Positions 16,411 through 45,627 of a DNA stretch of 64,000 bases are shown piece after piece. The translations under genes and the position numbers were made by a program. Within the stretch, counting starts at the first letter, position 1, and each line of letters starts with the position of its first letter. Source of the stretch: a bacterium. GTDB taxonomy: Bacteria > Zixibacteria > MSB-5A5 > CAIYYT01. The DNA lies in contig JADJGC010000024.1 in the NCBI GenBank assembly GCA_016708315.1, positions 26,638-90,637 on the forward strand, written 5' to 3'. The notes below the pieces were generated by a model, which saw nothing but the letters and a program-made list of their open reading frames with translations, made no database searches and had not been told where the DNA came from.

Positions 16411-17373
16411 TCAAGAGGTTCCCAGCTTCGCAGCCGCACGCAACCTTGCGCTCCGAGAGCGCTGATTTCTTGATATTTCCGCTTCGCCCGGCATAATCGC
16501 CTTGCGAGTGATTCTCCGAAGTAGAGGTTTCTTGCCGCAAACGCATACCGGAACGCGTGGCGGACAGATGCAGGGATTTTCCTGCGCGACCATGAACTGT
16601 TTGACAGCACGGTCTTCGAGGGAGTGGAAACTAATTACCGCCAGAACGCCGTCGACACGCAGGTAGTCCACGATTTTCGGCAGAACGGTGTTGAGCTGTT
16701 CGAGCTCGTCGTTGACCCAGATGCGCAAGGCTTGCCAGATTTGCGAAAGCCCTTGTTTCGTTTTCTCGCGCTTGAGATACGGTGTCACCACAGAGACAAG
16801 GTCGGCTACAGTAGCAAGTTGTCCGGCATCGGCCGCGGAAATGATGGCTTCTGCGATGCGATGGGCACGATCTACCTCGCCGTATTCGCGCAAAATCTGC
16901 GTAAGCTCATTCACTGAAACCTGCGAGAGCTTGGTTGACAACGACTGGCCTGAAGATTTGTCAAAGCGCAAATCGAGGGCATCGTTCGATACCTGATGTG
17001 CAAAGCCCCGGTTTGAATGTTCGAGTTGGTCCGACGACAGACCAAGATCCAACAGCGCGAAATCAACTTTCCCCTTGTCGGCCTCGCCCAAGTGCAGATC
17101 AAAATTCGCATAGGAATCATGCACCAGGCGCAGTTGATTGTTATATGCTTTGAGACGTTGATTGGTTCTCGCCAATGCGTCAACATCCCTGTCGAAGCCG
17201 ATCACTTGCGCTGCCTCTCCCAATAGTTTTAGAATTGCTTCTGTATGTCCGCCGCTACCGACGGTAAAATCCACCACTAATCTTGCGCCGTGTGGCACCA
17301 AGGACAGTACTTCGTCCACGAGGACGGGAGCATGCGTCGGGCTATTTGCGTTTTCCGAACAGATTCTCGACAA
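16411..17373 (-). CDS. rsmH: 16S rRNA (cytosine1402-N4)-methyltransferase RsmH/MraW
   Basis: Contains VDFTVGSGGHTEAIL and other SAM-methyltransferase motifs. Conserved dcw position. Confidence 0.9.
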   Translation of the reverse strand: MSRICSENANSPTHAPVLVDEVLSLVPHGARLVVDFTVGSGGHTEAILKLLGEAAQVIGFDRDVDALARTNQRLKAYNNQLRLVHDSYANFDLHLGEADKGKVDFALLDLGLSSDQLEHSNRGFAHQVSNDALDLRFDKSSGQSLSTKLSQVSVNELTQILREYGEVDRAHRIAEAIISAADAGQLATVADLVSVVTPYLKREKTKQGLSQIWQALRIWVNDELEQLNTVLPKIVDYLRVDGVLAVISFHSLEDRAVKQFMVAQENPCICPPRVPVCVCGKKPLLRRITRKAIMPGEAEISRNQRSRSARLRAAAKLGTS

Positions 17374-17794
17374 CCTCTTCCACAGTCATCGGGAATGACT
17401 GATCGTAGGCCTTGTAACGCTGTTCGTTCCAAAGCTCGATTCGTTCGCGCACGCCCAGAATCAGAACTTGTTTATCGATTCCGGCATAATCCAAGAGATG
17501 CTTGGGAATCGTGATGCGTCCTTGTGAGTCCGGTATGCCTTCTGCCGAGTTCGAATAGAGGAAGCGTTTGAGATGGCGTTCCTGCTTGGAATCCATCGCC
17601 GATTCAGGAGCAAGTTTTTCGGTAAATTTGCGAAATTCGGCGTCGGAATAAAGATCCAGACAACCGTCGACATTGAAAGTCACAAAGAACTTGTCAGAAC
17701 CCTGGGCGGCAGCAATCGCTCGATACTTCGCGGGAATGGCGATTCTGCCTTTCCCGTCGACAGCGACGGTCTGTTTTCCAGTGTAATCTAACAA
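17342..17794 (-). CDS. mraZ: Transcriptional regulator MraZ
   Basis: DYTGKQTVAVDGKGRIAIPAKYR with duplicated MraZ/SpoVT domain. Probable TTG start at 17794 preceded by GGAGGG with a 6-nt spacer. The track ORF extends to 17866. Confidence 0.8.
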   Translation of the reverse strand: MLDYTGKQTVAVDGKGRIAIPAKYRAIAAAQGSDKFFVTFNVDGCLDLYSDAEFRKFTEKLAPESAMDSKQERHLKRFLYSNSAEGIPDSQGRITIPKHLLDYAGIDKQVLILGVRERIELWNEQRYKAYDQSFPMTVEEVVENLFGKRK

Positions 17795-17853
17795 AAGCGA
17801 CCCTCCGAAACCGAAACTTCCCCAATATTCCCCTCGACTCACCAAAAGTATTG

Positions 17854-17882
17854 TCAAACACCCCACTTGTCAAGCAAAAAAC
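17854..17882 (-). promoter_or_regulatory. Candidate sigma70 promoter of the dcw operon (-35 TTGACA, 17-nt spacer, -10 TACTTT); a second TTGACA lies inside the spacer
   Basis: Read on the minus strand about 60 nt upstream of the proposed mraZ start. Confidence 0.35.
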
Positions 17883-18104
17883 CCCATCTAACCCGCGAAA
17901 ATTCTCAGTAATTGCAAACCTCCCACAGGTATGGGGCTTACACCACTCTCGGCGACATGAGAAGTGGTTCAGGTTGCGACACTTGTAACGACTTGAAAAT
18001 TCCGAACGGCTAAGGTATTGCTTTACAAGGTGATGCGGGAGGCGACTTGACAGAAGCCAATCGGCACGGACTTTGCCTTAATAAGGGCGGCAGAAGTCAA
18101 GTAA

Positions 18105-20483
18105 ATGGCGGGAGAAATGAAGAAGATCGTAATAATCTCTATAACATTATGCCTTTTAATGCTTTGCAGCATTTATGACGGCGAAGGTGCTTTGCGCGAA
18201 AAAGTCGGTTTTGAGATCAATTCGGTCAGCCTCACGACGGACCAGACAGGCACCACGATCGAACTCAATACTGTTGATAATCAACAAGTTACGACGACAG
18301 GCGGGCTCCCCGTTCTGATTCGTCGTTATCTGGTGAAAAATGGGGAATTTGACTCGGTTAAGGCGGTGACTTCACTCAAAGAGACTATTGCTGAGAATCT
18401 CACACTAAAAGTCGAGCCGGATGTGGCGACATTTGCCGGTGATCTTGGGCGTGATAAAACATTCTACGTTAATGAGTTAGAGCGATTTTCCGAAAAATAT
18501 ACTCCGACATCAAGCGCATTCGTGATCGACAATAGCCGCGACGGCGACAAGCAGATTGTCACGATTGGAATCCGGCCTTTGGATTTTGATGCAATGGCGG
18601 GGACTTTGACAGGATACTCGGACATCGCGCTGGAATTCTTCGGCTCAGCAGATTTGAGCATGGAGCAGATCAGCGAATCCGAATCTCAAAACACTCCCCT
18701 GCTCAATCGCTCGTCGGCGGGATTTGCTTCCACTAGTGGAGTAGTTGATTACTTGATAGTCACGCGCGGTGATTTTGTCGAAGCGTTTTCTGAATTGGTG
18801 CAGTGGAAAACGGCAAAGGGATTGAACGTCGAAGTAGCGCTCATCAGTGATATCATTGCCGGAAATTCCGGACTTGATGATGCCGAGAAATTGCGCAATT
18901 ACTTGATCAGCAGATACTCCAGTGGGTTGAAGTACGTGCTTCTGGGCGGCGACGAGACGGTGGTTCCGATTCGTTATGCGTACCACGCAAATAGTTCAAC
19001 ACAGCCGCCGCTTGATCTGATGAATATCTGTGATTTGTATTACGGAGATGTCAACGGCAATTGGGATGCTGATGGCGACGGCGTGTATGGTGAGCCCTCG
19101 CAGGACCAGCCGGATCTCTATGCCGAACTCTTGGTGGGCAGATTGCCGTTCCGCAATGCGACTCAGGTTGAAAGCTATGTAAACAAGTTAATCGCATACG
19201 AGCAGAATCCGGGAGCGGGAGATTACGATTATCTCAACCGGGCACTGTTCATTTCTGCGGATCAGATGCGCGACTATCAGGGAGTTGGACAGCATAGCCT
19301 GCTTGCAGGATCATACCCGAGTCACGTCACCAGCGATATCAGCGATGTTGTAGAAGCTCCGACCGGTGATGCCGCCAATCCGGCGACGCCGCTGGCGCCG
19401 AGCGCGATTCAGACAATGTCTCAGGGCTGGGGAATGATGACGCTTCTGATTCATGGAGTCAGCGACGGATGGGTACTGCGTTCGCACGAGTACAACGAAT
19501 GGCCAAAGCAATTCTTGTTCACCGCAGCGGGCACTGACGGCGATCACGGATTCCTGCCAAATCTCGCTTCCAATGGCAAGCCGGGTGTTATCTATTCGAT
19601 CGGTTGCGACAACGCGGCTTTCGATATGGATGCGCCACCGTTTGGTGTGACGAATCCTTGCGTAGCTGAATCGTTCCTGGCAAAAGCAAACGGCGGTGCG
19701 GTATGTTTTGTCGGATATTCGCGCTGGGGATGGGTAGCGAGTTCGTGGAAGTTGGAGGAGGCTTTCATCGACTACGTCTACAACACGAATAACAACGGCG
19801 CGGAAGCAGTGCGCTATTCCAAGACGTTGTTCCCCTATTATCGCGATCTGTGCTACGGGCTTAACTATTTCGGCGATCCTGAAATGGATATCTGGACCAA
19901 TATCCCTCAGGAACTGCAGATCACGCGCAACAAGATTAAGCAGACCGGCGAGATCGTAATCGCGGTTGAAGTGAGCGACGGTTCGTCAGCGGTTGCTGAT
20001 GCGATGGTAACGATAACGAAGAACGGCGAGATTATCGGCCAGGAACTTAGCGCAAGTGACGGATATGCGAATATCGCGGTTGATTTCACTCTGGCTGATG
20101 AGTTTGTCGTGATTGTTTACAAGGCCGGTTACGCGGTTGAGGCGGCAGTGCTGGTGCCGGAAATCGTGCTTGATGCCGACGATGAAACCGGAAGTACACT
20201 TCCGGAAGTGTTTGCGTTGTACCAAAATTTCCCGAATCCATTCAACCCGGTGACGACGTTGCGGTTTGATGTGCCGACATCGACGCGCGTAGTGGTGGAA
20301 GTCTACAACGTGCTGGGGCAGTTGATCAATGTAATTGCGGACAATTACGTTGGCCCGGGCACGCATGAAGTCGAATGGAGCGGGGTGGACTTTGCAGGAC
20401 GTGCGGTAAGTTCGGGTGTGTATTTTGCGCGAATGAGTTCGCCGGGATTTTCGCACGCGATCAAGATGTCGCTGCTAAAATGA
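18105..20483 (+). CDS. Secreted peptidase C25 (gingipain/PorU-like cysteine peptidase) with type IX secretion C-terminal sorting domain
   Basis: N-terminal signal peptide. C25-like catalytic His (LLIHGVSDGW, about 19450) and Cys (IYSIGCDNAAF, about 19600). Also LLGGDETVVPIRY and YYGDVNGNWDADGDGVYGE. The C-terminal about 90 aa (20200-20480) match the T9SS tail pattern (NFPNPFNPVTTLRF....VYNVLGQ...G.H.V.W.G.D..G..V.SGVYF). Confidence 0.75.
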   Translation: MAGEMKKIVIISITLCLLMLCSIYDGEGALREKVGFEINSVSLTTDQTGTTIELNTVDNQQVTTTGGLPVLIRRYLVKNGEFDSVKAVTSLKETIAENLTLKVEPDVATFAGDLGRDKTFYVNELERFSEKYTPTSSAFVIDNSRDGDKQIVTIGIRPLDFDAMAGTLTGYSDIALEFFGSADLSMEQISESESQNTPLLNRSSAGFASTSGVVDYLIVTRGDFVEAFSELVQWKTAKGLNVEVALISDIIAGNSGLDDAEKLRNYLISRYSSGLKYVLLGGDETVVPIRYAYHANSSTQPPLDLMNICDLYYGDVNGNWDADGDGVYGEPSQDQPDLYAELLVGRLPFRNATQVESYVNKLIAYEQNPGAGDYDYLNRALFISADQMRDYQGVGQHSLLAGSYPSHVTSDISDVVEAPTGDAANPATPLAPSAIQTMSQGWGMMTLLIHGVSDGWVLRSHEYNEWPKQFLFTAAGTDGDHGFLPNLASNGKPGVIYSIGCDNAAFDMDAPPFGVTNPCVAESFLAKANGGAVCFVGYSRWGWVASSWKLEEAFIDYVYNTNNNGAEAVRYSKTLFPYYRDLCYGLNYFGDPEMDIWTNIPQELQITRNKIKQTGEIVIAVEVSDGSSAVADAMVTITKNGEIIGQELSASDGYANIAVDFTLADEFVVIVYKAGYAVEAAVLVPEIVLDADDETGSTLPEVFALYQNFPNPFNPVTTLRFDVPTSTRVVVEVYNVLGQLINVIADNYVGPGTHEVEWSGVDFAGRAVSSGVYFARMSSPGFSHAIKMSLLK

Positions 20484-21338
20484 TTGGCCGGAGAATTTTC
20501 GATAGGCCGTTCGAATCGTTGCTCCAAGACCGAGAATGATTGCAGCCAAGGGCCGCAGGAGTACTTTGGCTCCCAGCAGTTCGTGCTTCGCAAGGTAACG
20601 GTAGAAGCCGCAATGAGAATCCCAAATCAGCCATGTTCCCTCTTGCCGGGTCGAGCCGCCAACTAAGTGGTGCGCTTTCGCTTCCGGTACAAATCTGATC
20701 TCCAGGCCGTCATCCGCAATTCGCTTACAGTAGTCGACATCCGAAAAGAAGATAAAGAACTTCTCGTCCAGCGGACCGAGCCGAGTGATCACATCACGTT
20801 TGAGCATGAGCGCGGAGGCCATCGGTTGTTGGACAACGCCAGCCGTGTTGTGGTCAAAGTAGCGATTGCGCCAATGGCCAAGTGTGACATTGCGTGGAAA
20901 CAGCATTGACAACAGAGCGGCATCGTAGACGAGTGTCGAAAACGTCGGGAAATTGCGGACACTATGCTGAATGCTGCCGTTGTGGTTGAGCAATTGCGGC
21001 GCTGATGCTGCAACGGTCGTACTGGCATCCAGCGCGGCCAGAAGCTTGGCAGTACAGTCGGCAATTAATCGGACATCCGGATTGAGAAGGAATATTACAT
21101 CGCCGGTCGCAGCAGCAATTGCTTGATTGGTTCCTCGCGTGTATCCGGTGTTTTGTTGATTGAGAATGTATCGGACGTTGCGGTTTCCGACGAGCTCGGC
21201 GCAATTTTCAGCGGGGCTGTTGTCGACGATGATGACTTCCCTTTCGAAGTCGCCCTGTTGTGCGTCGATGGAATCGAGCAGTGCGGCGATTGTCGCTTTC
21301 GAGCGATAGGCGACGATGAGATAGGAGACTTTGGTCAT
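20475..21338 (-). CDS. Family 2 glycosyltransferase
   Basis: N-terminus VSYLIVAYRS followed by a DxD-containing GT-A fold (IIVDNSP...LLNPD). Confidence 0.75.
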   Translation of the reverse strand: MTKVSYLIVAYRSKATIAALLDSIDAQQGDFEREVIIVDNSPAENCAELVGNRNVRYILNQQNTGYTRGTNQAIAAATGDVIFLLNPDVRLIADCTAKLLAALDASTTVAASAPQLLNHNGSIQHSVRNFPTFSTLVYDAALLSMLFPRNVTLGHWRNRYFDHNTAGVVQQPMASALMLKRDVITRLGPLDEKFFIFFSDVDYCKRIADDGLEIRFVPEAKAHHLVGGSTRQEGTWLIWDSHCGFYRYLAKHELLGAKVLLRPLAAIILGLGATIRTAYRKFSGQSF

Positions 21339-22576
21339 TCGTGGATTTCTTTCAGGCGATCGGCGAGTCGCGCAAAGGTGGCTGTCCATTCAAAGTCAGC
21401 ATAGTGGCCATTGTTGCGGAGCCCGCGGAATCGATCCGGAGACTCGAACACTGATTTCAGCGCCTCAGTCAGTTGCGAACCGTCGTCGACAATCCAGACA
21501 CCGGGGAATTGGCGCTCTTCGAGAATTTCGCGGGCGGCGTTTCCCTTTGGCAGGACGGCAATCAAGGGCGGCTCGGCACGCAGCAACTCCCAAAGTTTGG
21601 AAGGGACGACGAATGATGTGTCGTGGTCCTGCGTAAGCGCGACAATGTTCACTGCGGTGCGGCGAATTGCGGCGACGGCATCCGGGTGAGGCAAATAGCC
21701 GGTGCTGTGAAATCTGTCTGTCAGACCTGCGGCAGTAAGTGTGTCATCAAGAGTCGGCAGATCGAGATGACCGATGTGACGCAGACTGAAATTTGTCTGC
21801 GATTCGCTGCGAGCAAAGTCGCCGAGCCATTGCGCTACACGATCAAAGCCAATCAGGTAGTTCAGTGTGCCATAGATGCCGATGATGTTTGATTCGAGTG
21901 GACTGGTTGTGGTGAAATCTGCTTCTGAATAACCGTTGGGGAGGAACATAGATTTTGCTGTTGCATCATACTTGTCAGCATAGAAGCGAGTCGTGTTGGG
22001 CGAAGTCGCAGTCACGAGCGCGGCTTTGCCGATGATATGTTCAATCAGATTTTCGGCACGGTTTTGAGACTCGGCGTTGTCGCTTTGAAATGGCAGCGAC
22101 GACCAGATGTCGCGGAAGTCGGCAATCCAGGTTACATTATCAGACTCGGCACATTCCAACCCGACCAAATGCGAAGAGATCGGCGGCGAGGTTGTAATAA
22201 GCAGTGTCCGGGTGTCGGGCTGAATCAGCTTTGCGACAGCTTTGGTGGCGCCGGGAGCGAAGCCGATTTTGGAATCGGGAAACATCGACGAAGCGATGGC
22301 GCTTTTCGTCTTGCCTCCCAGGAGTTTCTTGAGCGAAAACATCGGCATGAAATGCTGGATGCGCGCCGGATCGGTCGAGCCGACGCGGATGACTTGGACG
22401 CGCGGATCGATTTGCGATTCCATGACCTTATCATGTGCGGGATAAGAGATCGGCTTGACGGAGACGACGAAGACTTCGTCACCGCGCGAGGCAAAGAAAT
22501 TCGCCAATGCGACGGGGCGCGCGGTACCCGCCAATCCCAAGGGCGGGAAATAGTAGCTAACGATGAGGACGCGCAT
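21335..22576 (-). CDS. GT-B fold glycosyltransferase (GT4-like)
   Basis: MRVLIVSYYFPPLGLAGTA N-terminus typical of GT4 enzymes. The stop overlaps the downstream GT2 start. Confidence 0.6.
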   Translation of the reverse strand: MRVLIVSYYFPPLGLAGTARPVALANFFASRGDEVFVVSVKPISYPAHDKVMESQIDPRVQVIRVGSTDPARIQHFMPMFSLKKLLGGKTKSAIASSMFPDSKIGFAPGATKAVAKLIQPDTRTLLITTSPPISSHLVGLECAESDNVTWIADFRDIWSSLPFQSDNAESQNRAENLIEHIIGKAALVTATSPNTTRFYADKYDATAKSMFLPNGYSEADFTTTSPLESNIIGIYGTLNYLIGFDRVAQWLGDFARSESQTNFSLRHIGHLDLPTLDDTLTAAGLTDRFHSTGYLPHPDAVAAIRRTAVNIVALTQDHDTSFVVPSKLWELLRAEPPLIAVLPKGNAAREILEERQFPGVWIVDDGSQLTEALKSVFESPDRFRGLRNNGHYADFEWTATFARLADRLKEIHE

Positions 22577-23636
22577 GTTCTACCGCGTAATCGTCGATCA
22601 AACGCTTGAAGGTGTAATCGGCGAGTTTCATTTGCTGTTCGCGAATGCCTTTGGACTCGAGGGCCGGAGCATAGCGAGCGTGGGCTTCGACGCGTGCATC
22701 AAGCGTTGCACCGAGTTTGATTTTTGATGCCAACACGACGGCATCGCTGATGGGAAAGAAGTGGCGGTCATCGTTGAGCCATTCGCGATTGCCGGGAATG
22801 TCGGTGACTATCGGATAGAGTTTCTGCGACATGGCTTCGAGCAGCGAGACCGATGCTGAATCGGATTTCGCGGTCGAGATGTAGATGTCGTGTGAGCGAT
22901 AGAGATTGAAAAGTTGTTCGTCGTTGCAGTAACCGGTGAAGGTGACGATATCGTCGAGCCCCAGTTCGCGCGACAAACTGCGCAGTTGCTGTTCGAGTGA
23001 TCCGCCGCCGGAGATCGTCAATACGAAGTTCAGTCCTTCAGTTTTCAGAATCTGTGCGGCGCGAAGCAACGTTGGAATGTCATACAAAGGTTCGTGCCGA
23101 CGAGTACTAAGGATTCGCAACGGTTTGGAATCAGTCAATTCGCGGGCGAGTCCGCTTTCGTGCCACGATTTTCGCACACCGAAACTGACGACGAGATGTC
23201 GCGGTACGCGATGGATATTGAAGGTTTCAGCGACCATCATCTGCGAATCCATCACGACGAGGTCGGCGCGCTTGAGGACATATTCACTGCGTTTGCGGCG
23301 GAGATATCCGCTTGTGCCGGTCAGCAACAGGTCAGAACCCCAGAGCGTGATCACCAAGGGATGGGCATTGACAGCGGCGGCGGCAAGACCGTAGGTCGGC
23401 AGAAAGTGGGCGTTGATGATGTTGGGCTTGAATTCGGCGATCAGTTTTTCGATTTGATCGGCCAAAGTCAGATAGCGCAGCGGTCCCCGTCTCCAGCGCG
23501 GCACAAGGCGAGTGCCGGTGAAACTATCGGTGAAGTCGCAGGAAGCAGTCATGACTTCCCAGCCCATCTTCTCAAACGAGTTGTGCCACCGCATTAAATG
23601 CGGAGCGATTGCCTCCCCGAGGAAGAGTATTTTCAA
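22557..23636 (-). CDS. GT-B fold glycosyltransferase (GT4/GT1 family)
   Basis: MKILFLGEA N-terminus. C-terminal domain with E..G-type motifs. Its start overlaps the end of the upstream FemAB-like gene and its end overlaps the downstream GT4 start. Confidence 0.65.
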   Translation of the reverse strand: MKILFLGEAIAPHLMRWHNSFEKMGWEVMTASCDFTDSFTGTRLVPRWRRGPLRYLTLADQIEKLIAEFKPNIINAHFLPTYGLAAAAVNAHPLVITLWGSDLLLTGTSGYLRRKRSEYVLKRADLVVMDSQMMVAETFNIHRVPRHLVVSFGVRKSWHESGLARELTDSKPLRILSTRRHEPLYDIPTLLRAAQILKTEGLNFVLTISGGGSLEQQLRSLSRELGLDDIVTFTGYCNDEQLFNLYRSHDIYISTAKSDSASVSLLEAMSQKLYPIVTDIPGNREWLNDDRHFFPISDAVVLASKIKLGATLDARVEAHARYAPALESKGIREQQMKLADYTFKRLIDDYAVEHARPHR

Positions 23637-24562
23637 CGGATCCTCGTCATGAAGTCGATGAATCTCTTGAGCTGTGTGCGGCGGACGTACTCGGTGTAAG
23701 GATGCTCAATGGCGCCCCAGGCCTCTTTGAATCGTCGTAGTCCCTTATCGAGCGGCGGTGTTGCACCGAGATTGAGACGCTGCAAGCCGGCGTCGCGGAA
23801 CTGATTGATCATTGAATCAAGGAGAAGAAAGTTTGCTCCGGCGTCAAGGCCATCTTGCGACGAAAAACCATCAAAGTAAAAAGCATCGGTGGTCGTCGCG
23901 AAATAGATGTGAACGCAATGCAATGCCGAGCCATTTTTCGCGGCGATTGCTTTGATTCCGCTGTCGCGATTGTCCGACTTCGCCAGCAGATACTCGTAAC
24001 AAGTTTGCGGAAAACGTCGGACTTCGCCGGTACGCTTCTGGTGAAGCTGCAATAGCGCTAGGTAGGCGGCGCTGTCTGAAGAGGTCAGTTGCACGACCTG
24101 TAGATTCTGATCTTGAGCCTTTTTGATGTTGCGGCGGGTGTTTTCCGAATATTCGGAAGAAGTCGTGGCCAAGTCTATGATATGCGTTGCCAAGCGGTTG
24201 CGATAGTAGTTGTCGGGATATTCAATCGAAGGGGTGATTTGGAATTGAACGATGTTTTCCTGCAAGTAGCGGCGGCCGCACAGCCATGTTGTGAGTGCAG
24301 AGACGTCATCGGCTGTGCCTTCGCCGAGAATACCGCCATAACCGCCATACGGCATCGAGAAGAATATCTTGCCGGCGGCGGTGGCTTTTTCCAAACCAAT
24401 TAGTGACGTGTTTCCTGAGGTGACACAAATCCCGTTCCAGCCGAGCGATTTCTGCCACATGTCGAGCAATGCGGGCAGCAGGAATACCGATGTTGGTCCA
24501 ATCGGTGTTGGTAGCTCAAGCTCGTGATGAGAATTGATCAGTTGACGAACAACAACTGACAT
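23633..24562 (-). CDS. FemAB/GNAT-like (Acetyltransf_6 / BioF2-like) transferase, putative aminoacyl- or acyl-transferase of a glycan pathway
   Basis: About 310 aa with an N-terminal half of weak, GNAT-fold-like similarity. It is embedded in the glycosyltransferase operon. The assignment is by overall resemblance only. Confidence 0.35.
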   Translation of the reverse strand: MSVVVRQLINSHHELELPTPIGPTSVFLLPALLDMWQKSLGWNGICVTSGNTSLIGLEKATAAGKIFFSMPYGGYGGILGEGTADDVSALTTWLCGRRYLQENIVQFQITPSIEYPDNYYRNRLATHIIDLATTSSEYSENTRRNIKKAQDQNLQVVQLTSSDSAAYLALLQLHQKRTGEVRRFPQTCYEYLLAKSDNRDSGIKAIAAKNGSALHCVHIYFATTTDAFYFDGFSSQDGLDAGANFLLLDSMINQFRDAGLQRLNLGATPPLDKGLRRFKEAWGAIEHPYTEYVRRTQLKRFIDFMTRIR

Positions 24563-24567
24563 TGGAT

Positions 24568-26767
24568 TTATCGCCTGATTACGAGAATTTTGCCGGTATG
24601 ATGAGTGCCGTCTTCGGCGCTGAGTTCCCAGATGTAAACGCCGGAGGCAACGAATTCGCCGGCATGATTGCGGCCATCCCAGCCGGCGCTGACAGTAGTT
24701 TCCCGGACAAGATCTGCCGCAACCGTGTAGATGCGGACATCACCGCGTTGATCAATCTGGAACTGAAGTTGATCGGTGAAAGCCGTGCCGATGCGGAAGG
24801 GATTGGGGTAGGCGAATACTCCGATGTCCCCGCCCTGATTGCCGGGAGTGTAGTCGAGGATGCTCAGTCCGCCATTGGTGAAGATCAGGAGTTTGTTGGA
24901 AGCTTCGTCATAAACCAGCTTTTCGATGTCGTTGGAAACCAAATCGGAATTGACAGTCGTGAAAGCGACCGGATCGGCCCCGTTGGCGGCCAAGCAGAGC
25001 TAATCCTTCGGAAGTGCCAACCCAGATATTGTTGCGCGAATCGGCGACTATTGATGTGATATTGGAGCCGATGCCGGGAGCGATTTCAGTCGGGAAAAAG
25101 AAATCGATACCCTCGTCGAACTTCGCGAGACCTTGATTTGTGCCAACCCACAGCACGTTGTCGCGGTCGTATGCCATTGCGGTTACAATATCGGACGGCA
25201 GGCGACGACTGCGGCTGAAATAGGCGAGTTGATCGTCGGCGTGGTTTTCAGGAGAGATTCCGTAACGCAGGAACGCAACGCCCTGGTCATCGACACCGAC
25301 TGCGGCGGTGCCGTTGCCGGCGGCTACGACCTGATTGTTGCCGCTGACGAATCCATCGGCGGCATCAAAGTGCTCCCATGTCGAATCGCTGGGGTCGAAC
25401 ATCACGAGCGGTCGAACGGGATTTGCCTGAAAAAGCGAGAACCAGATTCGCCCGGACGGGTCCTGATAGACCGAATTGACAACCACAAAAGCGGCATCTT
25501 GCGCAACACCGATTAAGTGAGAGTTACTGTTGTTGAACTGCTGGATAGCGCCATTTGACTTCACACGAAAGACGCCGCGGCCGAAGGTTGGAATCCATAA
25601 GTCACCGTTTGAAGCAACGAGCGCTGAGAGTTTCTCCGACGTGGTCACTGTCGTGTATTCCCAATCGCCATCGACGAATACTGACAGGTCGTCCGTGCGC
25701 GAAACGACAAGCAGACGGCCATCGGAATCGTAGCCGCCTCCGACCAAGGTATTACTGCTTGGGCCGGGAGCAGGCATTTTGACTGCAGAATTCAATGTGA
25801 GAATTTTGTGAACACCATCAGCTACGGTGCCGAAGTACCAGTCGCCGGAGTAAGCAAACGAGTTTAGCCCGGCGTTGAGTTCGGCGGGTAGTTGATAAAT
25901 TATCCACTCAAACGGTGAGATGCGAAATACCTGCCGCCCGCCTTCGGTGACAACAAGTGCATAGAGCGAAGTCGCTGGTTCGTCACCAAGTGAAAGATCG
26001 AGAATTTGCATCGCGGCAAAATTTTCTACGGGAGTGAGTGACGTCTCTCCATCCCAGACGTAGAGACCGCTGTTGGTGCCGACATAGAGCAAACCATTGA
26101 ATGCACCGAAGCAGGTGACCTTGATATCCTCGAAGATCGGAACACCCAGTTCAATCGTCGTCCACTCGGCCGGATCGAGCAGGAATTCGTTGTCGATGTC
26201 GCCAATCGCGACGCCTTCGTTAGTACCCGCGAAAATCTTGCCATCAAAGACGTGGACCGTATTGACAGCAGATTCGGTGAGGAAATTGCCGAGCGTGCGG
26301 TAAGTTTCTTTGACCTCGCCGCCATTGCGGACGCGGTCGTACTTGATGATTCCGACGCTGGATGCAATCCAGAGGAAGTCACCGCTGGTGTCGGCAGAGT
26401 TGAGCGACAGGAGTCCGCCGTCGCGCGAGCGCAATTGCGTTGAATTAAATGACTGCGATGACAGATTCAAGCGACTGAGGATGCCGTCGGCAGAACCGAA
26501 GTATGCCTCGTTGTCGCCGGCAAAAGCAGCAAAGTTAATCTTGATGCTGCCAAGGCCATCACTATTGAGATAGGTCGTTACCTCCCCGTTTGAGGGAGCG
26601 ATGCGAACTACACCGCCGGTTGTTGTTGCCCAGACAAAGCCGCCAAAGGAACTGAGCGAAGTGACTTCGTCCTTGTTGGTGTGATTCTCCCATTGGTAAA
26701 CCTGCGCAAAAACGCACGGGACAGAAAACAGAATCAGTATGAGTGTGGCAATAACAGGTCTAAACAT
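24568..26767 (-). pseudogene. Secreted beta-propeller (two-component-regulator-propeller / Y_Y_Y-like repeats) T9SS cargo protein, split by an apparent +1 frameshift near 24980-25000 into a 626-aa body and a 141-aa T9SS C-terminal-domain ORF
   Basis: Signal peptide MFRPVIATLILILFSVPCVFA. Repeated W/G propeller blades. Downstream ORF 24568..24993 carries the T9SS tail (FAYPNPFRIGTAF...VRIYTVAADLV...GVYIWE). Deleting one base in GGCCGCC (24985-24991, plus strand ggcggcc) restores a continuous ...GLALLGANGADPVAFTTVNSDL... reading. Confidence 0.6.
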
Positions 26768-28271
26768 AGCGCTTTCTTGTAACAGCAAGAATTATACCCC
26801 CGAGAATGGTCATCGCAAGGCAAATCTTTGCAAGGACAGCGCCGTGGCGACGGAATAACGTATCGCCCATCGGCGGGCCGATTTTGCCGGTGAGATAAGT
26901 GCGACCGCCGAGTTGGGTTTTGGCAACGACGCGGCCATAGGGATCGAAGATGCCGCAGATTCCGGTATTCGCGGCGCGGACGATCCAGACGCGATTTTCG
27001 ACGGCGCGAAACACGGGAATATAGAAATGCTGGTAGGGTCCGGCCGTCTCGCCAAACCAATCGTCGTTGGTAATGACGGTGAGAAACTCGGCGCCCTTGT
27101 TGACCATTTCGCGGACAAACTCCGGGTAGACGACCTCGAAGCAGATTAATGTTCCGAACTTGCGGCCATGCGACTCAAAAGTGACGATACTGTCGCCCGG
27201 GTGAAAGTCGGAGATATCGAGCGCGAGGCGCTCTTTGACGAACTCGCGGAACTTGGCGATAGCGGTGATCTTCTCGGCATAAGGCATGTGCTCGCCAAAA
27301 GGGACAAGCTGAAGCTTGTTGTGCGGTGTCGGGAGCATGCCCTTGTCTGGTGAGAAGAAGAACGCTGAGTTATAGTACTTGCGCACACCCTCCGGTGAGC
27401 GCGTCATATAGAGCGCGCCGGTCATGATATCGACGTTTTCGCGACGGGCGATTGATTCGATCCAGGAGATGTAGGGACGCTCAAGATTCAAATACATCGG
27501 CGCTGCGCTTTCGGGCCAAATCAACAATTGCGCGGAATCGGCAGCTTGGGCGCTTAGTTCATCATAAGCGACGAAGTTGTGATCAGCCTTGCCGTTTTGC
27601 CATTTCTCATTGACTGGAATGTTGCCTTGTAATGCCGCCACAGAGAAGTCAGGCTCGAGCGGGTGTATGCGAGTCACGCCCCAGATGTAGGCTCCGCTGT
27701 AAAGCACGATTGCGGTGATAAAGAGAACGCTCGAGAGAATCATCCGTCGAAGGTTGGCATACGCGAAGTAGAGGATCAATCCAATGATGCAGACGAAGAA
27801 AGTCACGACGGCATCGCCATTCAGTTCAGCAAGTTGGATGATCGCAATGTTTGATGCCTGAGTGTAGGAGATGTTCTGCCACGGGAACGAAACCTGCGTC
27901 AGCGAGCGCGAGTATTCCATCGCGACCCACAGTATTGGCAGTGACCAAAGACCGGCACGGCCGTAGCGCTTTGTGGCTTCACCTGCAAGACCGCCAATAA
28001 CGGCGTAATACAGCGAATGGAGCAGGACCATCAGGATGACACCGACGACATTGACATAGACGACCCAATAGAGCGTCAGTACTGCCGTGATGACACCAAA
28101 AACGTAGCCGCTGCGGAAGCCTTCTTTGAATCCGAGTCCGCGAATCGAAGCGGCAAAAATCGGCACAAAAAAGTAAGAGAGAATCCAGAACGGCAATGGC
28201 TCAAATGCTAAACTGAAGAAGAGGGCAGAGATTATAAGAACAACGGTTCTTTGAGGGAGCTTAAATCGCAT
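26760..28271 (-). CDS. lnt: Apolipoprotein N-acyltransferase
   Basis: N-terminal polytopic membrane domain plus a C-terminal CN-hydrolase domain (LLIWPESAAP, C in GTLICFE). Confidence 0.85.
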   Translation of the reverse strand: MRFKLPQRTVVLIISALFFSLAFEPLPFWILSYFFVPIFAASIRGLGFKEGFRSGYVFGVITAVLTLYWVVYVNVVGVILMVLLHSLYYAVIGGLAGEATKRYGRAGLWSLPILWVAMEYSRSLTQVSFPWQNISYTQASNIAIIQLAELNGDAVVTFFVCIIGLILYFAYANLRRMILSSVLFITAIVLYSGAYIWGVTRIHPLEPDFSVAALQGNIPVNEKWQNGKADHNFVAYDELSAQAADSAQLLIWPESAAPMYLNLERPYISWIESIARRENVDIMTGALYMTRSPEGVRKYYNSAFFFSPDKGMLPTPHNKLQLVPFGEHMPYAEKITAIAKFREFVKERLALDISDFHPGDSIVTFESHGRKFGTLICFEVVYPEFVREMVNKGAEFLTVITNDDWFGETAGPYQHFYIPVFRAVENRVWIVRAANTGICGIFDPYGRVVAKTQLGGRTYLTGKIGPPMGDTLFRRHGAVLAKICLAMTILGGIILAVTRKRYV

Positions 28272-35588: not shown

Positions 35589-38500
35589 TTAGAGCTGGCG
35601 AACTTTGGTCCGCAAATCGAGGGCTTCGCGTATCTTGACCAGGAATGTACGCATCTGGAAAGGTTTGGCGATGTATCCGAGGATACCATCCTGGAGAAAT
35701 TCCTGAATATCCTGATCGCTGAAGCCGGACATGATGAGAACTTTGACGTCAGGATTGAATTTCTTGAGAGCTGCAAAGGTATCGCGACCGTTCATTTTCG
35801 GCATCATCATGTCGAGCAGAACAAGATCGATGGCGTTCATACCGGTACGATAGAGTTGAACGGCTTCTTCGCCATCTTTGCAGGAAACGACCTTGTAGCC
35901 CGCCTTGGTGAGCATTCTCTCGGCGAGATTGCGAACGATGTCTTCATCATCGACGAGCAAAATGCGCTCGCGACCATCGACTTTGATTTCGGTAATTTCA
36001 GCCGCGCTCGGAAGCGCTGTACCTTCCAACACCGGGAAATACAAAGTGAAGGCTGAGCCTTTACCGACGCTGCTGGCAACCTCGACACATCCGGCGTGGC
36101 TCTTGACGCAACCGTAAACTCCCGCCAAACCAAGACCGGTACCCTTGCCCTGTTCTTTGGTCGTGAAGAATGGATCAAAGATGTGCGAGAGAATCTTGTC
36201 CTCAATTCCGACACCGGTATCGGATACAGTAATGGAAATGTATTCGCCGGGTCCACGCTCCAGCGAATGACGGTTACAATAGTCAGCGTCGAGATTGACA
36301 TTGCGGGTAGTGATGATTAGTCGGCCACCATCGGGCATGGCATCGCGGGCATTGACGCCGAGGTTGAGAATAGCACTCTGGATCTGCGACGGGTCGCCCT
36401 TGACAAAACTTTGCGACGCAGAAAGCTCTGTTTGAATTTCAATCCGACGGTCGATGGTGTGTGAAAGGATAATCTTGACTTCATTGATTGCATCATGAAT
36501 ATCCATCGGAACAGCGAGGAAGTTGCCCTTGCGCGCGAAAGCGAGCAACTGACTGGTGAGATCGGCGGCGCGCGAAGCGGCACGGATGATTTCGCCGGAG
36601 TAGTCTTTCAGCTTTGAATCGTCGGCTGCTTCGAGACTGATCAATTCGCCAAATCCGCGTATACCGGCGAGAAGATTGTTAAAATCGTGGGCAATTCCGC
36701 TCGCAAGCCGCCCGACAGCCTCGAGTTTCTGCGCTTGGCGAAGTCGTTCTTCGAGTTCGGCCTCTTTGGTGACATCGCGTTTGACAGCGACGAAATTGAT
36801 GACTTTGCCGGCTGCATCTTTAATTGGCGAGATTGCGCATTCTTCTTCATAGAGAGTACCGTTCTTGCGCTTATTGGTGAATCTTCCCACCCAGGGTTCG
36901 CCGGCGCGCAAGGTGGTCCACATATCCCGGTAGTACTCGGCGGATTGCACACCGCTCTTAAGAATTCGCGCGTTCTGACCAATGACTTCTTCGCGGCTGT
37001 ATCCGGAGACATTCACAAAAGCAGAATTGACGTAAATGATCTTGCCGTCGATGTCGCTGATGACGATCGACTCGGTTGCTTGTTCGACCGCTTTCGCAAG
37101 CTGCGAGCGTTCGGTTTCGATTTCGCGTCGATCGGTGATATCACGCGAGTTGAAGACTATAGCGCCGACATGCGGATCATCAAGCAGTTGCGGCCAATCG
37201 TGTCGAGAATGCGCCAACTGCCGTCTTTGTGGCGAATGCGCAATTCTGCAGAAACATCGCCGCCCTTGATGAGAGCGCGCCGCATAATCTCTCGCACGCG
37301 TCGGCAATCGTCGCGATGCAGGCGCCTGAAGATGCTGGTGCCTTTGAGCTCGTCGGCACTGTAGCCGAGCACGCGTTCCACGGACGGGCTCAGGTAGATG
37401 AACTGTCCGTTGATATCAAAGAGTGTGATTACGTCAGACGAGTTATCGATGAGAGCACGGAAATGCTCTTCGCGTGACTGCAGCGCTTCCTCGGCGTGTT
37501 TCTGCTCGCTGATATCGGCAATGAACCCTTCGAGGGCAACAACCCTGTTCTCTTCGTCTACAACTGCGCTGCCCTGTTCCCAAACGAACTTGATCTCGCC
37601 GTTGCGTGTGATGAGACGATAGGTGAGCCGGTACGATTCACGTCGTTCGATGCCTCGTTGCACTTCGTTCCAGACCATTGTGCGATCATCAGGATGGATT
37701 AGATCATTGTATTGGACCGACCCGCCAATCTGCATCTCAGATGGGGTGTAGCCGGTCAATTGACGACAACCTTCACTGACGAATTCCATCGGCCAATCGG
37801 GGGTGTTCTGGCATCGATACGCCATTCCTGGAAGATTCCCGAGGAGAGCGGACACAGATCTCTGCTGATCGCGCAATTTTGCCTCTGCAAGTTTGCGCGC
37901 GGTGATGTCTTCGAATACGGTAACGAAGTATCCTTCTCTGGGACTATAGGCAGAAATCCAGAACCAGCGACCAAGCTCGGGTGTTTCGCTTTCAAACTTG
38001 ACTGTCTCGCCATTGAGCGCGACGCGGCCATACTTGCCGATCCAATTTTCCTTGGCGGATTCGATGCCGGGGATGACTTCGGTAACGCATCTGCCTATTA
38101 AGTTTTCGCGTTTGAGTCCAGTCATTTCCTCAAAGACAGAGTTGACCTCAAGAAATATGTAGTCGATGGGATTGCCGCTCGGATCGAGGACTATCTTGTG
38201 GAGTGCAAAGCCATCGATCAAGTTTTCGAACAAAGAACGATACTTCTCTTCGCTTTCGCGCAACGCATCGTGAGATATCTTCTCGCTGGTAATCGACTCG
38301 GTAAAGACGATGATGCCGCCGATTGAATCCTGACTGGTTCGCCACGGACTAACAATGAATCGTATCCAACCTACTGTACCGTCAGCGCGGATGATCCTTT
38401 CTTCAGTGCTTTCAACGGTCTCTCCCGCCATGGCATGACGGTAGATATCACGCCAGCGTTCACTGGTCTCCGGGAAGAATTCGAATTGAGAATGTCCAAT

Positions 38501-45262: not shown

Positions 45263-45627
45263 ATTAAGTAGTACTTCGCAGTACTTCAACAACTCTAAGA
45301 CATTTAATAGAATTTACGGTGTTCGGTGGTATGCAAACAGGCACCAGAGAATCCATGTTGCGCAAGCAAACTCTCAGTTGTGGGTTCGTGTCGTTTGTTC
45401 AACCTCGCCGGTAACTTTTTGAGATTGGAGAATATCGGGAATCTTAGGTAAAGCGCTGCAAGTTCATTTTCATACGCACGTTGCGTCCTCTCATATCCTT
45501 TGCACGTTTTCCCCCGCCGTAACGGCATTCCGCGATAGTTGATCCAATCAGAATTAGAATCGAAATGTGTCACATTGTGAAAGAATATAAGTCCTCTGCA
45601 GAACCTTTAGAAAACATTGGAGTCAAA

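What the first reader, a model, noticed from the sequence alone, without database searches (positions are those of the whole stretch)
18105..24562. PorU-like C25 peptidase next to a glycosyltransferase/FemAB-like operon; candidate T9SS cargo-processing and glycan-anchoring module
In Porphyromonas, the T9SS sortase PorU is itself a C25-family peptidase. It removes cargo C-terminal domains and transfers cargo onto a dedicated anionic glycan (A-LPS), whose synthesis needs specific glycosyltransferases and an amino-group-bearing linking sugar. This window has the same kinds of parts side by side. There is a C25 peptidase with His/Cys dyad motifs and a T9SS tail, followed convergently by GT2, two GT4-like enzymes and a FemAB/GNAT-like transferase. 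The next gene is a T9SS cargo protein. The arrangement suggests a locus that builds the acceptor glycan and attaches cargo to it. No equivalent has been characterised outside Bacteroidetes.
Basis: inference. Interest (0 to 1): 0.6.

Follow-up and report, generated by a model that had tools for sequence, protein, structure and literature searches.

The report
PorZ-glycan operon beside C25 peptidase
In a Zixibacteria-type genome, a secreted gingipain-like protease lies next to a conserved operon that pairs a homologue of PorZ (the type IX secretion protein that presents a glycolipid anchor) with an amino-acid-adding enzyme and three sugar transferases; this looks like a kit for making the surface anchor of secreted proteins, but the protease is not shown to be the attaching enzyme.

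Summary
They are a 792-aa C25 peptidase with a T9SS C-terminal domain (18105-20483, +), then convergently GT2, a GT-B-like protein, GT4 and a Fem/GNAT-like transferase.

Two corrections change the picture.
- The "next cargo gene" is a full-length homologue of PorZ, the T9SS attachment-complex protein that delivers the glycolipid acceptor. In this window it is split by a +1 frameshift near 24,990.
- The peptidase has gingipain RgpB architecture (prodomain, catalytic domain, Ig-like domain, CTD). It scores 86 bits against the NCBIfam PorU model, whose cutoff is 420. It matches RgpB better than PorU in both sequence profile and predicted fold.

Across 56 non-redundant related loci, Lnt-PorZ-like-Fem-like-GT4-GT-B-like(-GT2) is the conserved core. 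The Fem-like gene directly follows PorZ-like in 51 of them. The C25 gene is adjacent in 30 of 38 informative loci and absent in 8. It also stays next to mraZ in two loci that lack the operon.

The Fem-like enzyme belongs to the aminoacyl-tRNA-dependent Fem family and matches TIGR03019, the model that VimA is reported to match.

Verdict: the glycan-anchor idea gains real support through PorZ and the Fem-like enzyme. The "PorU-like sortase" label for the peptidase is not supported. This is a new variant of a known system, of moderate interest.

The parts
18105..20483 (+). C25 cysteine peptidase, 792 aa. Layout: signal peptide, gingipain-like prodomain (about 30-190), catalytic domain (about 215-595, His450/Cys501), Ig-like domain (about 605-685), T9SS type A CTD (about 705-792). 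It is divergent from mraZ and convergent with the operon, overlapping it by 9 nt.
   Evidence: Pfam and NCBIfam scans. Alignment A1 invariants. PDB profile hits to RgpB, PorU, Kgp and the Kgp prodomain. AF2 model with pLDDT 80, and Foldseek match to RgpB at TM 0.74 and to the RgpB prodomain at TM 0.5.
20475..21389 (-). GT2 family glycosyltransferase, last gene of the operon. The likely true start is near 21344, judged from the 289-aa orthologue. The gene is missing in some related loci.
   Evidence: Pfam Glycos_transf_2 2.8e-16. Orthologue length. Presence and absence across loci.
21335..22576 (-). GT-B-like protein of 413 aa, a probable GT4-like glycosyltransferase.
   Evidence: No Pfam or NCBIfam hit for the window protein. 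The N-terminus has the typical GT-B pattern MRVLIVSYYFPP (my reading of the sequence). Orthologues hit Glyco_trans_4_4 and Glyco_transf_4 weakly. Conserved in the operon.
22557..23636 (-). GT4 family glycosyltransferase, 359 aa.
   Evidence: Pfam Glycos_transf_1 5e-23 and Glyco_trans_4_2 1e-18. Conserved directly downstream of the Fem-like gene.
23633..24562 (-). Fem-type (FemXAB/GNAT, Acetyltransf_6) putative aminoacyl-tRNA-dependent aminoacyltransferase, 309 aa. It is VimA-like at the family level.
   Evidence: Pfam Acetyltransf_6 23.7 bits (cutoff 22) and weak FemAB. 27 of 40 orthologues hit TIGR03019, and 9 of 40 hit the FemX model NF047883. The family profile hits FmhB, FemX, FemA and an aa-tRNA-dependent peptide synthase in the PDB.
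24568..26788 (-). PorZ-like protein: signal peptide, propeller (Reg_prop) repeats matching PorZ and the double-propeller BT4663-type sensors, and a T9SS CTD. It is disrupted here by a +1 frameshift at about 24,990. The probable start is the ATG at 26767. Orthologues are intact at 717-741 aa.
   Evidence: Translations and DNA. NCBIfam PorZ match of 116 bits for the truncated window ORF and 179 bits end to end for orthologues. Profile A4 against PorZ 5M11 gives E 3.7e-36 as one collinear stretch, and against the BT4663-type sensor 4A2L 5e-46 as repeats.
26760..28271 (-). Apolipoprotein N-acyltransferase Lnt. It overlaps the PorZ-like start and is the first conserved gene of the block.
   Evidence: TIGR00546 287.5 bits (cutoff 132.9). 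Found immediately upstream of PorZ-like in 47 of 56 loci; most of the rest are truncated contigs.
17342..17866 (-). mraZ, the first gene of the dcw cluster. It is the divergent neighbour of the C25 gene and a marker of that gene's conserved position.
   Evidence: TIGR00242 101 bits. C25-mraZ adjacency is seen in all loci that carry the C25 gene and are long enough, including L026 and L027, which lack the operon.

Best explanation
The minus-strand operon lnt / PorZ-like / Fem-type aminoacyltransferase / GT4 / GT-B-like / GT2 is most likely the Zixibacteria counterpart of the acceptor side of the T9SS attachment system.

Proposed mechanism (all steps inferred):
1. The three glycosyltransferases assemble a short lipid-linked oligosaccharide.
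2. The Fem-type enzyme adds an amino acid to an amino sugar of that glycan. This gives a free amine, as VimA does for the P. gingivalis linking sugar.
3. The PorZ-like protein is exported through the T9SS by its own C-terminal domain. On the cell surface it binds the glycolipid and presents it for transpeptidation of cargo.

What is shown: the domain identities, the tight operon packing, and the conservation of the PorZ-like/Fem-like/GT core across many divergent loci. The chemistry, the acceptor role and the binding by the PorZ-like protein are inferred.

The neighbouring C25 peptidase is a T9SS-exported, gingipain RgpB-architecture zymogen with an intact His/Cys dyad. Its position is tied to the dcw cluster. 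It is a candidate for the CTD-cleaving or attaching enzyme, but it is more probably an ordinary secreted protease.
For: PorZ identity:
- NF052228 matches end to end (1-731 against 1-757) at 179 bits in intact orthologues.
- Profile A4 matches PorZ 5M11 over 170-714 against 146-741, E 3.7e-36, including the CTD.
- The protein has the PorZ layout described in PMC5121618 (propeller domains followed by a CTD), with no kinase or Y_Y_Y part detected in the Pfam scan.

Fem-type enzyme:
- TIGR03019 is hit by 27 of 40 orthologues, best E 1e-19.
- The significant PDB profile hits (E up to 1e-4) are all Fem-family aminoacyl transferases or an aa-tRNA-dependent peptide synthase.
- Veith 2020 reports that VimA matches TIGR03019 and transfers Ser or Gly onto the linking sugar (PMC7468200).

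Operon:
- Genes overlap or abut: 4-nt, 20-nt and roughly 8-nt overlaps.
- Of 56 non-redundant PorZ-like loci, 51 have Fem-like directly downstream. GT4 and GT-B-like follow wherever the contig continues, even at 25-30% PorZ identity and in loci away from dcw (L035, L045, L047).
- Variant loci add a Wzx-type flippase (L044) or an ArnT/PMT_2-like GT-C (L032, L064). Both fit a lipid-linked glycan that is exported to the periplasmic face.

Known parallel: P. gingivalis needs three GTs after the initiator, plus VimA/VimE, to build its linker (PMC13086638), and PorZ delivers A-LPS to PorU (PMC8545088, abstract).

T9SS use in this genome: three CTD proteins lie in the window.
Against: - No direct comparison with VimA itself could be made. 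The window Fem-like protein has no NCBIfam hit of its own.
- PorZ-like scores lie below the NCBIfam equivalog cutoff (114-180 bits against 260). HTCS sensor propellers score higher in total bits.
- No Wbp-pathway gene, VimE-type deacetylase, initiating transferase, flippase or ligase was found among the window ORFs scanned.
- Everything around the operon (HD, AIRS, lnt, dcw) is also syntenic in this lineage, so part of the conservation is plain inherited gene order.
- The operon lies beside the cell-wall cluster in most loci, which would also suit a peptidoglycan-related Fem enzyme.
- The PorZ-like gene is frameshifted in this window.
- T9SS core genes of this organism were not seen.
Confidence: 0.5

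Rival explanations
1. One reading: the C25 peptidase is the lineage's PorU equivalent. It would be a compact sortase that removes cargo CTDs and joins cargo to the glycan made by the adjacent operon and presented by the PorZ-like protein.
For: - It has a C25 catalytic dyad and a T9SS CTD.
- It shows low-level similarity to the PorU model, including the CTD.
- It occupies the same position, one copy per locus, down to 34-36% identity, which is more typical of a core gene than of an accessory protease.
- It is adjacent to the operon in 30 of 38 informative loci.
- No protein named PorU appeared among the top 120 Zixibacteria-dominated homologues.
- A PorZ homologue implies that a partner transpeptidase exists somewhere.
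Against: - NF033707 gives 86 bits against a cutoff of 420, and 65-117 bits in orthologues.
- At 792 aa it lacks the extra PorU domains; the PorU model has 1095 positions and the 6ZA2 chain has 1156 residues.
- The profile scores RgpB 70 bits against PorU 39 bits.
- Foldseek gives RgpB TM 0.74 and PorU TM about 0.2, and the N-terminal domain matches the RgpB prodomain.
- Eight loci have the operon without the peptidase, three of them with mraZ directly after the operon. L026 and L027 keep C25-mraZ without the operon.
- The gene is convergent with the operon, not co-transcribed.
- NCBI names the family members 'C25 family cysteine peptidase', not PorU.
Confidence: 0.2
2. An ordinary envelope-glycan or cell-wall locus with no role in cargo attachment. 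The GTs and the Fem-like enzyme would modify LPS core, an exopolysaccharide or peptidoglycan precursors. The PorZ-like protein would be just a secreted double-propeller glycan-binding cargo. The C25 peptidase would be an unrelated secreted protease. The adjacency would reflect inherited gene order next to the dcw cluster.
For: - The whole block from HD/AIRS to dcw is syntenic in this lineage.
- The Fem-like family also matches FemX, a UDP-MurNAc-pentapeptide alanyltransferase, in 9 of 40 members, and FmhB.
- The operon borders the mur/fts genes.
- Reg_prop double propellers are common sugar-sensing modules (PMC5121618).
- A similar Fem-GT4-Wzx-GT2 module exists in Bacteroidales with no T9SS gene beside it (L108).
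Against: - The PorZ-like protein matches the PorZ model end to end, including the CTD, and lacks sensor-kinase parts.
- The PorZ-like/Fem-like/GT4/GT-B-like core stays together at 25-30% identity, including loci not next to dcw (L035, L045, L047), whereas flanking genes change.
- TIGR03019 is the stronger and more frequent family match than FemX.
Confidence: 0.25

Closest known systems
P. gingivalis T9SS attachment system: PorU/PorV/PorZ/PorQ plus the Wbp/Vim linking-sugar and A-LS pathway (PMC7468200, PMC13086638, PMC8545088, PMC10202324)
   Same: - A PorZ homologue with PorZ-type propeller repeats and a CTD.
- A Fem/GNAT-type enzyme of the family that VimA is reported to match.
- Three glycosyltransferases, as in GtfC/GtfF/VimF acting after the initiator.
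- CTD-bearing cargo in the same genome, and a C25 peptidase nearby.
   Different: - Here PorZ-like, Fem-like and the GTs form one operon. In the P. gingivalis literature read here, vimF is described as part of a vim operon (PMC13086638) and porZ is not described as linked to it.
- No VimE deacetylase, Wbp genes, WbaP initiator, PorV or PorQ were seen among the window ORFs scanned.
- The nearby C25 enzyme is not PorU-type.
- The organism is a Zixibacteria-type FCB member, not Bacteroidota.
- lnt is co-operonic.
Gingipain RgpB (peptidase family C25; PDB 1CVR, 4IEF)
   Same: - The same domain order and sizes: signal peptide, roughly 200-aa prodomain, catalytic domain, Ig-like domain, T9SS CTD.
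- The catalytic Cys aligns with Cys244.
- It is the best sequence-profile and fold match.
   Different: - Only 17-18% identity.
- Substrate specificity is unknown.
- The gene sits in a conserved position beside mraZ in an environmental lineage.
- Whether it is surface-attached or released is unknown.
PorU (C25 sortase / C-terminal signal peptidase; PDB 6ZA2, NCBIfam NF033707)
   Same: - C25 catalytic core.
- A type A CTD that aligns with the PorU CTD.
   Different: - About 360 residues shorter.
- Scores about a fifth of the family cutoff.
- The whole-chain fold alignment is poor (TM about 0.2).
- No porV neighbour.
PEP-CTERM/exosortase-associated FemAB protein (TIGR03019) and FemX/FmhB aminoacyl-tRNA transferases
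   Same: Best family-level matches of the Fem-like enzyme. Veith 2020 proposed that such enzymes make an aminoacylated sugar acceptor for sortase-like systems.
   Different: - Scores are far below the TIGR03019 cutoff (best example 43 bits against 260).
- No exosortase or PEP-CTERM genes here.
- The partner is a T9SS PorZ homologue instead.

Membership tests
PorU (T9SS sortase) | Passes the curated family model NF033707 (cutoff 420 bits) | tested here: not met
   86 bits for the window protein, covering only the catalytic core and CTD. Orthologues score 65, 73, 92 and 117 bits.
PorU (T9SS sortase) | Multidomain architecture of about 1100-1300 aa, with extra N-terminal and post-catalytic domains | tested here: not met
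   The protein is 792 aa. Its domains map one-to-one on RgpB prodomain, catalytic domain, Ig-like domain and CTD. The PorU chain 6ZA2 has 1156 residues.
PorU (T9SS sortase) | C25 His/Cys catalytic dyad | tested here: met
   H450 and C501 are invariant in 32 orthologues. C501 aligns with RgpB Cys244.
PorU (T9SS sortase) | CTD-directed cleavage and transpeptidation to a glycolipid amine; CTD retained; bound to PorV | not testable with these tools
   This needs biochemistry or proteomics. No porV-like gene was found among the window ORFs scanned against Pfam.
Gingipain-type C25 peptidase (RgpB-like zymogen) | Peptidase_C25 catalytic domain followed by a C25 Ig-like domain | tested here: met
   PF01364 at 8.7e-57. 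PF03785 is weak (18.6 bits). Foldseek against the RgpB catalytic plus Ig domains gives TM 0.74, E 6e-23.
Gingipain-type C25 peptidase (RgpB-like zymogen) | N-terminal inhibitory prodomain | tested here: inconclusive
   Fold match to RgpB prodomain chains, TM 0.5, E 9e-6. Profile hit to the Kgp prodomain 5MUN, E 0.007. Pfam Propeptide_C25 is detected in the homologue in L027 and in many hits, but not in the window protein. An inhibitory role was not tested. PorU-like proteins can carry the same domain.
PorZ (T9SS A-LPS delivery protein) | Passes the curated model NF052228 (cutoff 260 bits) | tested here: not met
   116 bits for the frameshifted window ORF. Intact orthologues score 179, 179, 139 and 114 bits, two of them aligned end to end.
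PorZ (T9SS A-LPS delivery protein) | Two tandem seven-bladed beta-propellers followed by a T9SS CTD, with no kinase or transmembrane part | tested here: met
   Collinear profile match to the PorZ structure 5M11 over 170-714 against 146-741, E 3.7e-36. Reg_prop and PorZ_N_b_propeller hits. TIGR04183 tail in orthologues. Architecture as described in PMC5121618. No structure model could be made for it.
PorZ (T9SS A-LPS delivery protein) | Binds the acceptor glycolipid and presents it to the sortase; anchored through PorQ | not testable with these tools
   Function is known only from P. gingivalis experiments (PMC8545088).
VimA / Fem-type aminoacyltransferase | FemAB-like GNAT fold (Pfam Acetyltransf_6) with similarity to TIGR03019, as reported for VimA | tested here: met
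   Acetyltransf_6 at 23.7 bits (cutoff 22) in the window protein. TIGR03019 is hit by 27 of 40 orthologues. PDB profile hits to FmhB, FemX, FemA and an aa-tRNA-dependent peptide synthase. The VimA family assignment comes from PMC7468200.
VimA / Fem-type aminoacyltransferase | Orthology to P. gingivalis/T. forsythia VimA; vimE (CE4 deacetylase) and vimF neighbours | tested here: inconclusive
   No VimA sequence was obtainable. The nearest Bacteroidota relatives found (L024, P0121-P0240, Paludibacter-type) sit beside GT4 +/- Wzx and GT2, not beside a deacetylase. There is no CE4 gene in the operon.
T9SS type A cargo | C-terminal sorting domain TIGR04183 / PF18962 | tested here: met
   C25 protein: TIGR04183 28.3 bits against cutoff 23. 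The 2201-aa protein at 45565-52170: PF18962 28.3 bits against cutoff 27. PorZ-like orthologues: 20-25 bits.

The most novel reading that the evidence does not exclude
Zixibacteria and their relatives run a minimal T9SS attachment system. A compact, RgpB-architecture C25 peptidase encoded beside mraZ would serve as the CTD peptidase and sortase in place of the large PorU. It would join cargo to an aminoacylated glycolipid that is built by the adjacent Fem/GT operon and presented by the co-operonic PorZ homologue. That would make this the first single-locus 'sortase + acceptor synthesis + presenter' module, and it would lie outside Bacteroidota.
Probability: 0.18. Interest if true: 0.7.

Novelty: new variant of a known kind. 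Interest (0 to 1): 0.5.

Why it matters
Cargo attachment by the T9SS has been worked out experimentally only in Bacteroidota, mainly in P. gingivalis, T. forsythia and P. intermedia. In the papers read here, the genes for the presenter (PorZ), the linking-sugar enzymes (Vim/Wbp) and the linker glycosyltransferases were linked by mutant phenotypes and mass spectrometry.

Here a PorZ homologue is fused into one tightly packed operon with a Fem-type aminoacyltransferase and glycosyltransferases. That operon is conserved across many divergent environmental genomes. This gives independent genomic evidence that PorZ function is coupled to an aminoacylated glycan. It also suggests that the attachment mechanism predates or extends beyond Bacteroidota.

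The operon offers a small, defined gene set for heterologous tests, for example complementing P. gingivalis vimA or porZ mutants. It also warns against labelling every CTD-bearing C25 peptidase as PorU.

Tried and rejected
1. Direct test against VimA. No VimA sequence could be reached.
   - The genome scan with the Fem-like alignment found only the same lineage plus one Bacteroidetes MAG (an earlier attempt failed for lack of conserved columns).
   - A database search seeded with that Bacteroidetes protein returned a Paludibacter-type Fem family.
   - Its contexts (Fem-GT4-Wzx-GT2, or solitary) are not the vimA context described in the literature.
   - VimA orthology is therefore left open.
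2. Looking for a canonical PorU in this lineage.
   - A 2120-aa C25 protein in L077 passes the PorU cutoff and sits next to a PorZ-like gene.
   - Its relatives are labelled Poribacteria, Anaerolineae, Planctomycetes and Eisenbacteria.
   - It therefore says nothing about Zixibacteria. It shows instead that the C25 + Propeptide_C25 family is broad.
3. Weak 'C25' hits upstream of the operon in L032, L045 and L047 turned out to be CTD-only matches, i.e. other cargo proteins.
4. The promoter and terminator scan gave no more sites than shuffled sequence. One -35/-10-like site lies just upstream of the PorZ-like start.
6. The PorZ-like protein could not be modelled.
7. The exact C25 protein is not on record, so the source contig was not identified.
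8. No Wbp-type or other sugar-modifying genes turned up in the rest of the window that was scanned. It holds the dcw cluster, priA, sensor kinases, valS and aromatic amino-acid genes.
9. Literature searches found no paper that links Zixibacteria with T9SS terms.

Full report
**1. What is in the sequence**

- On the plus strand, 18105-20483 encodes a 792-aa protein. It has a signal peptide, a strong Peptidase_C25 domain (E 8.7e-57), a weak C25 Ig-like domain and a T9SS type A tail (TIGR04183 28.3 bits, cutoff 23).
- Convergent with it, with the stop codons overlapping by 9 nt, a tightly packed minus-strand series runs in the order below:
  - lnt, 26760-28271 (TIGR00546, 287 bits)
  - a PorZ-like gene, 24568-26788
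  - a Fem/GNAT-like gene, 23633-24562
  - GT4, 22557-23636
  - a 413-aa GT-B-like gene, 21335-22576
  - GT2, 20475-21389
- Successive genes overlap or abut by a few bases.
- Upstream of the peptidase, and divergent from it, lies mraZ and the whole dcw cell-division cluster.

**2. Origin**

- Homologues of the peptidase are almost all about 770-830 aa. Where they are named, they come from candidate division Zixibacteria (Zixiibacteriota) or 'FCB group' MAGs.
- Some closely related MAGs carry the submitter label 'uncultured Ignavibacteria bacterium'.
- The exact protein is not on record.
- In the held literature, no paper links Zixibacteria with T9SS terms.

**3. The 'next cargo gene' is a PorZ homologue**

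- The 626-aa ORF hits NCBIfam PorZ (NF052228, 116 bits) and Pfam PorZ_N_b_propeller and Reg_prop.
- It ends in an odd basic tail. The true C-terminus, including a T9SS-type C-terminal domain, continues in another frame (24568-24993). One extra G in CTTGGCCGCC at about 24,990 explains the break exactly.
- All orthologues are intact at 717-741 aa. Two of them align with the PorZ model end to end (1-731 against 1-757) at 179 bits. That is below the equivalog cutoff of 260.
- A profile of six orthologues matches the P. gingivalis PorZ crystal structure 5M11 as one collinear stretch (170-714 against 146-741, E 3.7e-36).
- BT4663-type sensor propellers score higher, but through repeated stretches. 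This is the relationship described for PorZ itself (PMC5121618).
- I therefore treat it as a distant PorZ homologue with the same architecture, not a proven functional equivalent.

**4. The Fem-like enzyme**

- The window protein passes Pfam Acetyltransf_6 and hits FemAB weakly.
- Of 40 diverse orthologues, 27 hit TIGR03019 (PEP-CTERM-associated FemAB, best E 1e-19) and 9 hit the FemX model.
- The significant PDB matches of the family profile (E up to 1e-4) are all Fem-family aminoacyl transferases or an aminoacyl-tRNA-dependent peptide synthase: FmhB, W. viridescens FemX, FemA and the synthase.
- Veith et al. 2020 showed that VimA determines whether Ser or Gly is put on the T9SS linking sugar, and reported that VimA matches TIGR03019 (PMC7468200).
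- The resemblance to VimA is therefore at the family level. Direct orthology could not be tested.

**5. The peptidase is gingipain-type, not PorU-type**

- His450 and Cys501 are invariant in 32 orthologues. Cys501 aligns with RgpB Cys244.
- Against the PorU model NF033707 the protein scores 86 bits (cutoff 420), and orthologues score 65-117 bits.
- A 32-sequence profile scores RgpB at 70 bits (E 2e-18), PorU 6ZA2 at 39 bits (its best stretch is the CTD) and Kgp at 33 bits. It also touches the Kgp prodomain (E 0.007).
- An AlphaFold model (pLDDT 80) matches the RgpB catalytic plus Ig domains at TM 0.74 and Kgp at 0.67. It matches RgpB prodomain chains at TM 0.5, and PorU only at TM about 0.2 over the whole chain.
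- The domain order (signal peptide, prodomain, catalytic domain, Ig-like domain, CTD) and the sizes are those of RgpB.
- One caveat: the prodomain-like module is not exclusive to gingipains, because PorU-scoring proteins also carry Propeptide_C25.

**6. What is conserved with what**

I collected related loci by three routes:
- exact-protein look-ups;
- a genome scan with the Fem-like alignment;
- a metagenome scan with the PorZ-like alignment.

I then annotated them with HMMs built from the window families. The results for 56 non-redundant PorZ-like loci are as follows.
- Fem-like lies directly downstream in 51. Three of the other five are truncated contigs. L041 lacks it. L044 has a variant copy on the other strand, together with GT2, a Wzx-type flippase and a GT1.
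- GT4 and GT-B-like follow wherever the contig continues. lnt precedes in 47.
- This holds at 25-30% PorZ identity and in loci that are not beside the dcw cluster (L035, L045, L047).
- GT2 is variable. L032 and L064 insert an ArnT/PMT_2-like GT-C gene.
- The C25 gene is adjacent in 30 of 38 informative loci, always between the operon and mraZ.
- It is absent in 8. In three of these (L032, L052, L064) mraZ directly follows the operon.
- Conversely, L026 and L027 keep the C25-mraZ pair without the operon.

There are therefore two separate conserved adjacencies:
- C25 with dcw;
- lnt / PorZ-like / Fem-like / GT.

These two usually, but not necessarily, abut.

**7. Interpretation**

The best-supported reading is that the operon is an acceptor-side T9SS attachment module. 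Glycosyltransferases build a lipid-linked oligosaccharide. The Fem-type enzyme gives it a free amino group by aminoacylation. The secreted PorZ homologue presents it at the surface.

This parallels the current P. gingivalis model:
- a linker assembled by an initiator plus GtfC, GtfF and VimF;
- the SAGA linking sugar made by Wbp/Vim enzymes;
- PorZ delivering the glycolipid to PorU (PMC13086638; PMC8545088; PMC10202324).

Only the domain identities and the gene linkage are shown. The chemistry and the acceptor role are inferred. I put this reading at about 0.5.

The peptidase is most simply a T9SS-exported gingipain-like zymogen. Its stable single-copy position beside mraZ across deep divergence is unusual for an accessory protease. 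That keeps alive, at about 0.2, the possibility that it is this lineage's compact CTD peptidase or sortase.

The main rival (about 0.25) is an ordinary envelope-glycan or peptidoglycan-modifying locus, whose PorZ-like member is just a secreted sugar-binding protein.

**8. Limits**

- No T9SS core, PorV, PorQ, Wbp, deacetylase or initiating transferase genes were seen among the window ORFs scanned.
- The rest of these genomes could not be searched.
- VimA itself could not be compared.
- The PorZ-like protein could not be modelled.
- The frameshift may be an assembly error or a real inactivation in this genome.

**9. Verdict**

- Observation: confirmed.
- Interpretation: partly supported. The PorU label is not supported.
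- Novelty: a new variant of a known kind of system, in a phylum where the T9SS has not been studied.
- Interest: about 0.5.

Noticed in passing
window 24568-26788 (-), break at about 24,990: The PorZ-like gene is split by a +1 frameshift: one extra G in CTTGGCCGCC. All 50-plus orthologous loci have an intact gene of 717-741 aa. This is either an assembly error or a recent pseudogene.
   Followed up: partly
window 17342-20483; L026 8253-11451; L027 9077-12430: The C25 peptidase gene is divergent from mraZ, the head of the dcw cell-division cluster. This pairing persists in a Calditrichaeota-labelled MAG and in a JGI contig that both lack the GT/PorZ operon. Why a secreted cysteine peptidase keeps this position is unexplained.
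   Followed up: partly
window 45565-52170 (+): A 2201-aa protein made of Big_9, PKD and cadherin-like repeats with a T9SS C-terminal sorting domain. It is a large probable surface adhesin cargo.
   Followed up: no
L077 627-6986 and 7122-11366: A 2120-aa C25 protein passes the NCBIfam PorU cutoff (440 against 420 bits). It lies directly upstream of a 1415-aa PorZ-like protein. Its closest relatives are labelled Poribacteria, Anaerolineae, Planctomycetes and Eisenbacteria, so the PorU model or the C25 + Propeptide_C25 family reaches well beyond Bacteroidota.
   Followed up: partly
L032 15424-16740; L064 11695-12990; L044 9039-13621: Operon variants exist. An ArnT/PMT_2-like GT-C gene is inserted between GT-B-like and GT2 in loci that lack the C25 gene. 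Another variant places GT2, a Wzx-type flippase, a GT1 and a Fem-like gene on the opposite strand next to PorZ-like.
   Followed up: partly
L108 6001-10290; L024 578-2636: Bacteroidales (Paludibacter-type) genomes carry a related Fem-like gene followed by GT4, and in L108 also by a Wzx flippase and GT2, beside a bactofilin gene. This suggests a reusable Fem + GT module for aminoacylated glycans.
   Followed up: partly
window 26760-28271 (-): lnt (apolipoprotein N-acyltransferase) overlaps the start of the PorZ-like gene. It precedes PorZ-like in 47 of 56 related loci. Whether this is functional coupling or inherited order is unknown.
   Followed up: no
window 35589-40036 (-): Two ORFs overlap by about 150 nt: 959 aa of PAS repeats, then 572 aa with PAS, HisKA, HATPase and receiver domains. 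They may be one hybrid sensor kinase split by a frameshift.
   Followed up: no
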